DNA from: a virus
Taxonomy: Duplodnaviria; Heunggongvirae; Uroviricota; Caudoviricetes
Length of the DNA stretch: 15,032 nt
Virus record (IMG/VR): IMGVR_UViG_2529293240_000016
Direction: 5' to 3' (one strand)
Shown: piece after piece, positions 90 to 619 of the stretch
Layout of the letters: every line of letters starts with the position of its first letter
Numbering within the stretch: position 1 is the stretch's first letter
Position numbers and translations under genes: made by a program
Notes under the pieces: model-generated
The model's input: the letters and a program-made list of their open reading frames with translations, nothing else
The model's database searches: none
Told to the model about the DNA's origin: nothing

Positions 90-117
90 AAAAAAAGCGG
101 CCCCGAAATGGAGCCGC
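90..117 (-). terminator. Intrinsic-terminator-like hairpin on the minus strand
   Basis: Plus strand reads A7-GCGGCCCC-gaaat-GGAGCCGC; on the minus strand this is a 7-8 bp GC stem followed by U7. Implies a leftward transcript ending here. Confidence 0.4.
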
Positions 118-619
118 CTTTCTGAACAGATAACCCGCTGCGCCGTTTGTGTGTGTGATCCCAAACATAAGCACGGGGATGATAGCCGCTATCAGGCTGG
201 TGGGCAATGCAATCAGTCTGGTTCAGTGCGTTGCCATAACTGCGAAGTTCTCTCCTTTGATGAGTATTCTTTAAGGTACTTCTCAAGGGCAAAAGAACAC
301 GGCGCGAATCGTTCTGATTCATGCTCTTTCTTTCTGCGTCGTCTTTTTCGTGCAGGTGATGTTTTTTCGGTTGATTCTTCGTTGGTCATTGTGTGCGCCT
401 GTAAAGCAATGCGCCGTAGTACCTCACACCACGGCGCTGATAGTTTTTATCCTTTGGGTTCTATGCCGCGTTGCTGTAATTCTTTGCGGATTATTCGCTT
501 TATCCAGGCAGCAAGAGAATCATCGCCGTCCTGTTGTTGTGCCTTTTCCATCTTTTCCCGTAAGTCAGGATCTAAACGGAACTGGAACGGAGGATTACCA
601 CGCCTTTCGTTTTTGTGTG

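What the first reader, a model, noticed from the sequence alone, without database searches (positions are those of the whole stretch)
90..551. Evidence for a leftward transcript at the window start: minus-strand terminator and a minus-strand ORF broken by one in-frame stop
A strong minus-strand terminator (90-117) implies leftward transcription from about 600. On that strand a 34-aa ORF (551..447, SD-like GGGAAAAG) and a 58-aa ORF (389..213, very basic ARKRRRRKK stretch) are in the same frame, separated only by a TAA. This could be a divergent small regulator that is now a pseudogene, or a non-coding RNA.
Basis: seen in the sequence. Interest (0 to 1): 0.35.

Follow-up and report, generated by a model that had tools for sequence, protein, structure and literature searches.

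The report
Two intact small leftward regulator genes
The supposed broken gene is two separate, intact small genes, a likely DNA-binding repressor and a tiny basic protein, in the control region of a phage-parasitic island, where they lie antisense inside a long open frame on the other strand and next to a likely unrecognised antisense RNA.

Summary
The terminator (117..90) and both minus-strand ORFs are real. They share a frame and are separated by TAA plus 57 nt.

The upstream ORF is 59 aa and starts at GTG 626, not ATG 551. It looks like an Arc-like ribbon-helix-helix (RHH) protein. It is conserved at full length in 43 species genomes (dN/dS 0.06), 42 of which lack ORF2. ORF2 (58 aa, phrog_21027, dN/dS 0.20) follows at least 10 unrelated RHH genes in 54 viral contigs, always behind the same spacer. 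In many of those the spacer carries a second in-frame stop.

The window is a decayed capsid-forming phage-inducible island (PICI, P4-like; IS1 in its primase). Inverted repeats in the overlapping promoters between ORF1 and the rightward Icd/Kil-like-to-primase operon change with RHH type. I infer ORF1 is the island's operator-binding repressor.

Two extras:
- A roughly 77-nt structured minus-strand RNA (761..686), antisense to the icd/kil start, has strong covariation and matches no Rfam family.
- The + strand frame 1..747 is kept open through both genes. It sits where phage P4's eta ORF sits.

No expression data were available.

The parts
90..117 (-). Intrinsic terminator of the leftward ORF1-ORF2 unit. 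Stem 117..110 / 104..97, loop 109..105, U-run 96..90. The A-run at 121..119 gives it weak bidirectional potential.
   Evidence: Fold -24.8 kcal/mol, z -3.9. Conserved in close relatives. Replaced by a non-homologous hairpin plus T-run at the same relative place in other ORF2 loci.
213..389 (-). ORF2: 58-aa basic protein (ATG 389, stop TGA 215..213). Function unknown.
   Evidence: phrog_21027, E 3e-12. 54 viral-contig loci. 24 clusters, all E. coli/Shigella. dN/dS 0.20 in the sense frame, in-frame indels, invariant core EHESERFAPC.FALE with synonymous changes. AF2: disordered basic N-terminus plus one helix at 29-55, pLDDT 70.
390..446 (-). Conserved 57-nt ORF1-ORF2 spacer with hairpin 437..411 followed by AUUGCUUUAC. 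Moves together with ORF2.
   Evidence: Same 57-nt gap and same frame in all but one ORF2 locus (L099 has 60 nt). Hairpin -22.1 kcal/mol, z -2.2 in the window, weaker in variant spacers (z -1.35). Second in-frame TAG in variant spacers.
447..626 (-). ORF1: 59-aa Arc-like ribbon-helix-helix protein (GTG 626, stop TAA 449..447). Inferred repressor of the island.
   Evidence: phrog_228 'Arc-like repressor', E 2e-6. NF041551 YlcI/YnfO at 20 bits, below its cutoff of 30. 43 species genomes. 117 clusters. dN/dS 0.059. AF2 helices 20-33 and 38-52. Foldseek top hits are RHH proteins but with E>1.
631..678 (.). Operator-like inverted repeats. O2 = ATTACA-TGAGG-TGTAAT (647..631), which holds ORF1's SD (GAGG, 640..637). 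O1 = TGTGTAATG-tgt-CATTACACA (675..655; imperfect 12-nt arms span 652-678).
   Evidence: the repeat finder I5, I8, I10. Conserved across genera. Repeat sequence changes with RHH type in more than 10 types.
620..647 (+). Predicted rightward promoter P_R (positional analogue of P4 PLE). -35 TTGACA 620-625 overlaps the ORF1 start codon; 16 nt spacer; -10 TGTAAT 642-647 lies inside O2.
   Evidence: Read from the sequence. Both hexamers conserved in relatives. Inference only; no transcription start site data.
666..694 (-). Predicted leftward promoter P_L for ORF1-ORF2. -35 TTGCTT 694..689; 17 nt spacer; -10 TAATGT 671..666 lies inside O1.
   Evidence: TTG is invariant in 38 sequences. I counted the 17-nt spacing by eye in the window, L006 and L024 only; the spacer sequence differs among them. 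Inference only.
686..761 (-). Candidate cis-antisense small RNA of about 77 nt, complementary to the 5' UTR, SD (746-750) and start codon (756-758) of the icd/kil-like gene. Terminator hairpin 726..694 with a U-rich tail.
   Evidence: 21 pairs, 97.3% of cells paired, 10 pairs with changes on both sides, 0 of 500 shuffles reach it, slid controls 39-52%. G.U pairs fit only the minus strand, 97.4% against 83.9%. Model R1 finds it in all 40 further sources with a hit, in both the window-type and other RHH-type loci, and not in P4. No Rfam match.
769..774 (-). Predicted -10 element (TATGAT) of the antisense RNA promoter, 7 nt upstream of the A at 761.
   Evidence: In 37 distinct relatives G-n-T-A-n-n-n-T is 97-100% conserved at a fixed 7-nt distance from an invariant A, while the inner and flanking positions vary. 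The window-type sequences could not be anchored in that count; their element is read by eye.
1..747 (+). Long open frame (248 codons, ATG at 1, stop TAG 745-747 inside the icd SD), antisense to ORF2, the spacer and ORF1. Positional analogue of the P4 eta leader ORF.
   Evidence: 0 stops against 12 and 21 in the other + frames. 47 of 20000 shuffles of the non-ORF parts keep it open. Open for 242-506 codons in all ~40 ORF2 loci and in frame with the Icd-like domain in about 30 of them. No family hit. Broken within ORF1 in 12 of 44 sequences (window plus 43 loci).
756..956 (+). Icd/Kil-like gene (66 aa), first gene of the rightward operon that leads to the primase.
   Evidence: NF033153 phage_ICD_like, E 6e-18. 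The C-terminal part of P4 Eta/Kil hits the same model at 7.8e-21.

Best explanation
Bases 90-626 hold a leftward two-gene transcription unit in the regulatory region of a decayed capsid-forming, P4-like phage satellite (PICI).

Inferred steps:
- Transcription starts at a promoter P_L (-35 at 694..689, -10 at 671..666).
- It passes through ORF1 (626..447), a 57-nt spacer with a hairpin, and ORF2 (389..213).
- It stops at the intrinsic terminator 117..90.

ORF1 is a 59-aa Arc-like ribbon-helix-helix protein. I infer that it binds the inverted repeats O1 and O2 (631-678). These lie on the oppositely oriented, overlapping promoters P_L and P_R. Binding would repress the rightward Icd/Kil-like-to-primase operon and ORF1's own synthesis, which would make ORF1 the island's immunity repressor.

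ORF2 is a separate 58-aa protein with an arginine/lysine-rich tail and one long helix. It travels as a cassette (spacer + ORF2 + terminator) behind RHH genes of many specificities. Its role is unknown; I guess a nucleic-acid-binding accessory protein.

The two ORFs share a frame because the spacer is a fixed 57 nt. This may matter. It lets the + strand frame 1..747 cross both genes in the antisense frame that is naturally poor in stops.

Shown here: the ORFs, their homologues, purifying selection, the independence of the two genes, the terminator fold, and the co-variation of repeats with RHH type.

Inferred only: promoter positions, DNA binding, repression, and co-transcription.
For: Context:
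- The window carries major head, protease, portal and large terminase genes plus a primase.
- Relatives have tRNA-Pro, int and an AlpA-type HTH gene immediately upstream.

ORF1:
- Arc-like PHROG hit, E 2e-6.
- Full-length conservation in 43 species genomes of Enterobacterales and Orbales, with the stop at a fixed place.
- dN/dS 0.059 against 0.185 for the antisense frame.
- AF2 predicts two confident helices after a conserved PPFQFRL segment.
- Foldseek's list is dominated by RHH proteins such as NikR, Arc, MazE9, ParB-pCXC100 and ORF56.

Independence of the two genes:
- ORF2 is missing beside ORF1 in 42 of 43 genomes; other cargo or nothing follows.
- ORF2 follows at least 10 other RHH-like genes.
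- Some spacers carry a second in-frame stop.

Operators:
- The O1 palindrome is nearly invariant across genera.
- Each RHH type has its own 2-3 copies of a different 9-11-nt repeat at the same place, next to a conserved GTCAAG/TATACT promoter scaffold.

Terminators: all ORF2 loci end in an intrinsic-terminator-like hairpin on the ORF2 strand.

Against: - No transcript, transcription start site, binding or genetic data.
- No Pfam hit. The NCBIfam YlcI/YnfO score is below cutoff.
- Foldseek E-values are all above 1.
- The AF2 monomer does not model the N-terminal strand.
- The promoters are consensus reading only; the scan did not list them.
- The spacer hairpin plus U-poor tail could end many transcripts before ORF2.
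- The island is decayed: IS1 in the primase and a split integrase in the nearest relative. The circuit may no longer matter in this genome.
Confidence: 0.72

Rival explanations
1. One ancestral gene of about 137 aa was split by a nonsense mutation (TAA 449..447), so the region is a pseudogene, or is expressed by stop-codon read-through.
For: The two ORFs are in one frame, and the 57 nt between them have no further stop in this window. One database protein of 139 aa spans both halves.
Against: - That 139-aa protein matches ORF1 only for residues 1-43 and ORF2 only at its end. The middle is out of frame, so it is a frameshift chimera.
- ORF1 stops at the same place with TAA, TGA or TAG in 43 genomes, and 42 of them have no ORF2.
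- ORF2 sits behind unrelated genes.
- Many spacers have a second in-frame TAG.
- ORF2 has its own conserved ATG in all but one locus.
Confidence: 0.02
2. Only the + strand frame 1..747 is a real gene (an Eta-like protein). The minus-strand ORF1 and ORF2 are antisense 'shadow' ORFs.
For: - The + frame is open far beyond chance: 47 of 20000 shuffles, and 242-506 codons in all ORF2 loci.
- PGAP annotates its homologue as an Icd-like (pseudo)gene.
- Third codon positions of the two strands coincide, so each frame lowers the other's dN/dS.
Against: - dN/dS is 2-3 times lower in the minus frames: 0.059 against 0.185, and 0.20 against 0.42.
- The + frame has stops within ORF1 in 12 of 44 sequences, while ORF1 itself is intact in all but one, whose annotated start is unclear.
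- In ORF2's invariant core, by my hand count, all 5 substitutions are synonymous for ORF2 and 3 of the 5 change the + frame.
- ORF1 has RHH family and fold signals. The 248-aa product has no family hit and looks Cys/Ser/Leu-rich by eye.
Confidence: 0.04
3. ORF1-ORF2 is a type II toxin-antitoxin or similar addiction pair: an RHH antitoxin followed by a small toxin.
For: - Weak hits of ORF1 to a VapB antitoxin model (E 0.012, 16 bits against a cutoff of 60) and a HicB-like PHROG (E 0.2).
- JGI names some homologues 'HicB family'.
- The order is antitoxin-first and bicistronic.
- In other genera the slot behind ORF1 holds small hydrophobic peptides or other cargo.
Against: - ORF2 is hydrophilic and basic. 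It has no toxin or defence family hit.
- It is absent beside ORF1 in 42 of 43 genomes.
- The genes are 57 nt apart with a hairpin, not overlapping or coupled.
- The operator repeats lie on the promoter of the divergent replication operon, not only on ORF1's own promoter.
Confidence: 0.08
4. ORF2 is not translated. The 389..213 stretch is a conserved 3' untranslated or RNA element of the ORF1 transcript, or is conserved only because of the + strand frame.
For: - The ORF2 family is narrow (24 clusters, E. coli/Shigella only) and has no known domain.
- The AF2 model has modest confidence.
- The 15 nt just after the ORF2 stop (CATTGCCCACCAGCC) are nearly invariant too, with one substitution in 33 sequences, so something other than ORF2 coding is conserved here.
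- Frameshifted variants exist in databases.
Against: - Start, stop and length (57-59 aa) are kept in 54 loci. Indels are multiples of 3.
- dN/dS of 0.20 is the lowest of the six frames.
- There are synonymous changes in an invariant 20-aa core.
- The internal fold is not unusual (z -1.9).
Confidence: 0.12

Closest known systems
Phage P22 immI region: Arc and Mnt ribbon-helix-helix repressors with overlapping opposed promoters and the sar antisense RNA (my own knowledge, not checked in a paper here)
   Same: Small RHH protein or proteins of about 50-80 aa. Palindromic operators sit inside overlapping, oppositely oriented promoters. A short antisense RNA starts inside the 5' end of the controlled gene, covers its ribosome-binding site and ends at an intrinsic terminator.
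   Different: No detectable sequence relationship beyond the PHROG 'Arc-like' hit; hhalign to Arc gives 9.6% probability. The controlled operon here is a satellite's Icd/Kil-primase operon, not an antirepressor. The repressor genes here lie antisense inside a long open frame.
Phage P4 immunity region: PLL - vis(alpA) - eta/kil nested genes - PLE - CI RNA (as summarised in PMC10111431, which cites Forti et al. 1999)
   Same: Same gene order: AlpA/Vis homologue, then a long leader ORF, then an Icd/Kil-like domain (NF033153 hits both), then the primase. A promoter lies internal to the leader ORF. In about 30 relatives the long ORF is in frame with the Kil-like part.
   Different: No CI/C4-type RNA (no Rfam hit), and model R1 does not match P4. 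Immunity here appears to rest on a protein repressor plus a cis-antisense RNA on the opposite strand. In this window the long ORF stops 9 nt before the kil-like ATG instead of being fused. The X51522 record annotates no gene antisense to eta.
SaPI / Gram-positive PICI divergent regulatory pair (Stl/Rpr and Str) (PMC6092414)
   Same: A repressor gene is transcribed away from the replication and packaging operon, with the control region between them, in a phage satellite.
   Different: By my own knowledge Stl proteins are larger HTH repressors. The ORF1 unit points towards int/alpA but converges on them rather than being co-transcribed with int. Gram-negative PICIs were described as AlpA-activated with no known repressor.
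YlcI/YnfO family (NCBIfam NF041551) of lambdoid prophage small proteins
   Same: Weak similarity over ORF1 residues 17-53 (E 5e-4). PGAP labels genes under matches to this region 'YlcI/YnfO family protein' in several E. coli relatives.
   Different: Score of 20 bits is below the curated cutoff of 30. The family itself has no described function in the literature searched.

Membership tests
Ribbon-helix-helix (Arc/MetJ-type) DNA-binding proteins | Strand-helix-helix core of about 45 residues | tested here: inconclusive
   AF2 (49-sequence alignment) gives helices 20-33 and 38-52 with pLDDT >90. The conserved segment PPFQFRLDP (12-20) precedes them but is not modelled as a strand in the monomer. 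Foldseek's best matches are nearly all RHH proteins, but E is 1.1 or higher.
Ribbon-helix-helix (Arc/MetJ-type) DNA-binding proteins | Match to a curated family profile | tested here: inconclusive
   PHROG 228 'Arc-like repressor', E 2e-6. No Pfam family. No PDB sequence match. hhalign to Arc 9.6%.
Ribbon-helix-helix (Arc/MetJ-type) DNA-binding proteins | Binds repeated or palindromic operator half-sites in its target promoter | not testable with these tools
   Indirect support only: palindromes O1 and O2 sit in the promoter overlap, and the repeats co-vary with RHH type.
YlcI/YnfO family (NF041551) | Score at or above the curated cutoff (30 bits) | tested here: not met
   20 bits, E 5e-4.
Type II toxin-antitoxin pair with RHH antitoxin | Cognate toxin gene constantly adjacent to the antitoxin | tested here: not met
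   ORF2 is absent next to ORF1 in 42 of 43 genomes. ORF2 has no toxin or defence family hit. The VapB model scores 16 bits against a cutoff of 60.
Rho-independent (intrinsic) terminator | G+C-rich hairpin immediately followed by a U-run on the transcribed strand | tested here: met
   8-bp core stem plus 7 U on the minus strand, -24.8 kcal/mol, z -3.9. Equivalent hairpins in all ORF2 loci.
P4-type eta/kil nested leader ORF | The short Kil gene carries the Icd-like domain | tested here: met
   NF033153: window 756-953 E 6e-18; P4 8171-8584 E 7.8e-21.
P4-type eta/kil nested leader ORF | Kil is the in-frame terminal part of a longer ORF that starts upstream of the internal promoter | tested here: not met
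   In the window the long frame ends at TAG 745-747, in a different frame from ATG 756. It is met in about 30 of 40 related loci.
P4-type eta/kil nested leader ORF | CI/C4-type immunity RNA with seqA/seqC targets on the same strand | tested here: not met
   No Rfam match at E<=1 in 1-2000, or at gathering score in the whole window.
P4-type eta/kil nested leader ORF | Translation of the long ORF prevents Rho-dependent termination | not testable with these tools
   Only the statistical openness of the frame is shown.
cis-encoded antisense regulatory RNA (sar / ctRNA type) | Conserved secondary structure on the antisense strand, supported by covariation | tested here: met
   21 pairs, 97.3% paired, 10 pairs with compensatory changes, 0 of 500 shuffles, slid controls 39-52%. 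Strand asymmetry from G.U pairs.
cis-encoded antisense regulatory RNA (sar / ctRNA type) | Own promoter and terminator that define a short transcript | tested here: inconclusive
   Conserved G-n-TAnnnT 7 nt before an invariant A, and a hairpin plus U-rich tail. No expression data.

The most novel reading that the evidence does not exclude
A large group of Gram-negative phage satellites (PICI, cf-PICI, P4-like) may have replaced P4's CI-RNA immunity with a three-part switch packed into about 800 bp.

1. A cassette-exchangeable RHH repressor, with operator repeats matched to each repressor type.
2. A conserved cis-antisense RNA of about 77 nt that masks the ribosome-binding site of the Icd/Kil-like first gene.
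3. An eta-like leader ORF on the opposite strand that must be translated straight through the repressor genes when the helper-induced upstream (alpA-side) promoter fires.

In this reading, induction both carries ribosomes past termination signals and silences the repressor unit through convergent transcription. It keeps the opposite-strand ORF in its stop-poor frame.
Probability: 0.3. Interest if true: 0.7.

Novelty: new variant of a known kind. Interest (0 to 1): 0.5.

Why it matters
Gram-negative PICIs and cf-PICIs are widespread vehicles of gene transfer. For them, the paper that first described them reported only an activator (AlpA) and called the existence of a master repressor unclear (PMC6092414).

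This region offers a concrete, testable candidate. It is a small RHH protein present in over a hundred sequence clusters across Enterobacterales, Orbales and Pasteurellales (one Mannheimia cluster), with operator repeats that change together with the protein.

It also offers a conserved structured antisense RNA that is not in Rfam. And it offers an unusual case of a long open frame maintained antisense to two functional genes, which bears on how antisense-overlapping reading frames arise and on annotation. Gene callers and PGAP sometimes call the long frame an 'Icd-like protein' and drop the two small genes.

For this particular genome the element is decayed, so the local consequence is small.

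Tried and rejected
- Rfam at E<=1 on 1-2000 and at gathering score on the whole window: only sub-threshold terminator-like matches (rnk_pseudo, ctRNA_p42d, STnc50); no family.
- Pfam for ORF1, ORF2 and the 248-aa + product: nothing meaningful.
- PADLOC for ORF1, ORF2 and four other small ORFs: no hits.
- PDB sequence searches with ORF1, ORF2 and the ORF1 profile: nothing significant.
- Conceptual read-through product search: only frameshift or fragment artefacts longer than either ORF.
- tblastn of the Icd-like protein against the phage collection: one hit, and P4 not found. The link to P4 Kil had to be made through NCBIfam NF033153.
- The direct repeat D2 (707-721 / 745-759), considered as a decoy ribosome-binding site: its loop copy is not conserved in relatives, so I dropped it.
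- The spacer hairpin 437..411 as a conserved attenuator: the stem is not maintained in variant spacers (z -1.35), so I keep it only as a possibility.
- The hairpin inside ORF2 (about 320..285): z -1.9, not pursued.
- Forti et al. 1999 (PMC94026) could not be read. P4 eta/kil biology is cited second-hand from PMC10111431.
- Literature searches found no paper on an RHH repressor in Gram-negative PICIs, and nothing on YlcI/YnfO function.
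Full report
**What the window is.** The 15-kb window encodes a DUF4222-type small protein, a primase, a major head protein, a maturation protease, a portal and a large terminase. Its first kilobase matches E. coli islands that sit next to tRNA-Pro. In those islands an integrase and an AlpA-type HTH gene lie immediately to the left, and 'Icd-like', DUF4222 and primase/RepA genes lie to the right. It is therefore the regulatory end of a capsid-forming, P4-like phage satellite (cf-PICI type). The nearest relative fetched is in Shigella flexneri (L004). There, AlpA ends 57 nt before window position 1 and the integrase is split. In the window the primase is interrupted by an IS1, so the element is decaying.

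**Check of the observation.** The minus-strand terminator is real. It has an 8-bp G+C-rich core stem (117..110 / 104..97), a 5-nt loop and seven U (96..90), folding at -24.8 kcal/mol with z = -3.9. ORF2 (389..213, 58 aa) is as described. The upstream ORF is in the same frame, and the 57 nt between TAA 449..447 and ATG 389 contain no other stop.

The upstream ORF does not begin at ATG 551. The frame is open from GTG 626, giving 59 aa. The 25 codons upstream of Met26 are as strongly constrained as the rest, with dN/dS 0.064 against 0.062. At that position the start codon is GTG in 27 distinct relatives and ATG in 6. A GAGG lies 10 nt upstream. Both exact proteins are already in public databases as separate hypothetical proteins.

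**One broken gene or two genes?** Two genes.
- ORF1 homologues were found in 43 species genomes of Enterobacterales and Orbales at 58-98% identity. Nearly all are 57-60 aa (range 55-60) and stop at the same place with TAA, TGA or TAG. In 42 of the 43, no ORF2 homologue follows. The slot holds unrelated small hydrophobic peptides, larger cargo genes, or nothing.
- ORF2 homologues were found in 54 viral contigs. Only three carry ORF1 upstream. The others carry at least ten different RHH-like genes. In every case but one the upstream gene's stop is exactly 57 nt before the ORF2 ATG (60 nt in L099), because the spacer is part of the conserved ORF2 cassette.
- In the commonest spacer variant a second in-frame TAG follows six codons after the first stop, which excludes a conserved read-through product.
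- A search with the 137-aa conceptual fusion returned only frameshift chimeras and fragments.

**Are they coding?** For ORF1 the sense frame has dN/dS 0.059 and no stop in any relative. The best alternative frame has 0.185 and stops in 4 codon columns. For ORF2 the sense frame has 0.20 against 0.42. Its indels are multiples of three. Its invariant 20-residue core (EHESERFAPC.FALEKFLKE) carries substitutions that are all synonymous in the ORF2 frame. By my hand count, three of the five change the opposite-strand frame.

ORF1 hits PHROG 228 'Arc-like repressor' (E 2e-6). It hits the YlcI/YnfO NCBIfam model below cutoff and has no Pfam family. AlphaFold2 with 49 homologues predicts two confident helices (20-33, 38-52) after the conserved PPFQFRLDP segment. 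Foldseek's list is dominated by RHH proteins (NikR, Arc, MazE9, ParB of pCXC100, ORF56, VapB), although no E-value is below 1 for so small a domain.

ORF2 hits only PHROG 21027, of unknown function. It is confined to E. coli/Shigella. It is predicted as a disordered Arg/Lys-rich tail followed by one long helix.

**What ORF1 probably does.** The 130 nt between ORF1 and the divergent Icd-like gene are conserved across genera.
- They contain a near-perfect palindrome, O1 (TGTGTAATG-tgt-CATTACACA, 675..655).
- They contain a second inverted repeat, O2 (ATTACA-TGAGG-TGTAAT, 647..631), which holds ORF1's Shine-Dalgarno sequence.
- Reading the sequence, a rightward promoter (TTGACA 620-625, 16 nt, TGTAAT 642-647) and a leftward promoter (TTGCTT 694..689, 17 nt, TAATGT 671..666) overlap. 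Each -10 lies inside one operator.
- The TTG of the leftward -35 is invariant in 38 sequences. I counted the 17-nt spacing by eye in three of them, where the spacer sequence differs.
- Strongest comparative argument: in loci where ORF2 follows a different RHH gene, the same place holds two or three copies of a different 9-11-nt repeat. Examples are TGAAACACAC, TGAATCGCAC, GTGTCTTACAC, TGTGCGCACA, GTGTCAGCCAC and TGGTATTCAC. One repeat family goes with each RHH type, next to a shared GTCAAG / TATACT scaffold.

That is the pattern expected of repressor-operator pairs of different specificity. I therefore infer, without direct evidence, that ORF1 represses the rightward Icd/Kil-like-to-primase operon and its own promoter. 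The paper that defined Gram-negative PICIs states that a global repressor is not known for them. I found no paper in the held library that describes this protein.

**A second leftward RNA.** Upstream of the ORF1 promoter, where no ORF ends, lies a hairpin (726..694) followed by a U-rich tail on the minus strand.
- Across 38 loci the region 761..686 folds into three helices with 21 pairs. 97.3% of cells are paired, and 10 pairs show changes on both sides. None of 500 shuffles reaches the observed values, and slid controls give 39-52%.
- Several positions are predominantly G.U, so pairing holds on the minus strand (97.4%) but not the plus strand (83.9%).
- A covariance model built from the cross-genus set finds the motif at the same place and strand in all 40 further sources with a hit. 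These include loci with other RHH types that were not used to build the model. It does not find it in P4.
- Seven nucleotides upstream of an invariant A, the pattern G-n-T-A-n-n-n-T is 97-100% conserved in 37 distinct sequences, while everything around it varies. This is the signature of a -10 element. In the window it reads TATGAT, 774..769.
- The predicted RNA of about 77 nt starts opposite the icd/kil start codon and is complementary to its Shine-Dalgarno sequence and 5' UTR. A hairpin loop displays CCUC in most relatives.
- It matches no Rfam family. Expression is untested.

**The opposite strand.** The + strand frame 1..747 has no stop, against 12 and 21 in the other two + frames. Shuffling only the 387 nt outside ORF1 and ORF2 keeps it open in 47 of 20000 trials. 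The equivalent frame is open for 242-506 codons in all of about 40 non-identical ORF2 loci, whatever RHH gene they carry. In about 30 of them it runs in frame into the Icd-like domain. It is also long in roughly 60% of the cross-genus ORF1 loci. It is broken within ORF1 in 12 of 44 sequences. Its product has no family hit.

The C-terminal part of P4's Eta/Kil hits the same Icd-like NCBIfam model as the window's 66-aa protein. According to PMC10111431, which cites Forti et al. 1999, P4 kil is the terminal part of the longer eta ORF. That ORF starts upstream of the internal constitutive promoter and is coupled to the alpA homologue. Its translation prevents transcription termination when the upstream late promoter fires.

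The window's long frame occupies that position. It stops at TAG 745-747 inside the icd Shine-Dalgarno sequence, 9 nt before the ATG, which would still allow translational coupling (inference). The difference from P4 is that two functional genes lie antisense inside it. The third codon positions of the two strands coincide, so the + frame uses the antisense frame that is naturally poor in stops. That only works through both genes if they share a frame. Gene callers and PGAP sometimes annotate the long frame as an 'Icd-like protein' in place of the small genes.

**Verdict.** The finding itself resolves into two ordinary, already catalogued but uncharacterised small genes with a proper terminator. 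The surroundings are more interesting. They hold a candidate satellite repressor family with co-varying operators, a well-supported structured antisense RNA absent from Rfam, and a long open frame maintained antisense to both genes. All functional statements rest on comparative sequence evidence only.

Noticed in passing
window 686-774, minus strand: Conserved structured RNA of about 77 nt, antisense to the icd/kil-like ribosome-binding site and start codon, with its own conserved -10 element and terminator. It has strong covariation, is present in every related locus searched that gave a hit, is absent from P4, and matches no Rfam family.
   Followed up: yes
window 1-747, plus strand: A 248-codon frame with no stops runs antisense through ORF2, the spacer, ORF1 and the promoter region. 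The same holds for 242-506 codons in about 40 relatives, and the frame is often fused in frame to the Icd-like domain. It sits where the P4 eta leader ORF sits. Whether it is translated is unknown.
   Followed up: partly
window about 2817-3616: An IS1 element (98% identical to E. coli IS1 copies) interrupts the primase gene. The two halves (1918-2838 and 3571-4443) match consecutive parts of the same primase profile.
   Followed up: partly
L004 3684-3872 and 4247-5497 (Shigella flexneri CP182556.1): In the nearest relative, the AlpA-type gene ends at a TAA that bounds the long frame, so the two are in the same frame with window position 1 lying 57 nt downstream. The integrase is split into 122-aa and 284-aa ORFs, so it is probably a pseudogene.
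   Followed up: no
window 198-212 (just past the ORF2 stop): The 15 nt CATTGCCCACCAGCC (minus strand) are nearly invariant in 33 ORF2 loci (one substitution), although they lie outside ORF2. A promoter-like match (TTGCCC 207..202, 17 nt, TATCAT 184..179) overlaps them in the window. No explanation.
   Followed up: no
L005-L046, the 0-300 nt downstream of the ORF1 homologue: The slot behind ORF1 is a variable cargo site. It holds small signal-peptide or TM-like peptides, 147-192-aa membrane or unknown proteins, a RelB/DinJ-like ORF, or nothing.
   Followed up: no
L002 3001-3594 (E. coli NZ_CP062876.1); L073 2250-3320: PGAP annotates the long antisense frame as an 'Icd-like protein' pseudogene in L002 and leaves the two small genes unannotated there. 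In L073 the equivalent frame is a 356-aa ORF that hits the Icd-like NCBIfam model. This looks like a systematic annotation problem for this island family.
   Followed up: partly
window 13572-15032, minus strand: A 486-aa ORF running off the right end of the window matches phrog_857 (unknown function) over its whole length, with a weaker kinase-like hit. It may be accessory cargo of the island.
   Followed up: no
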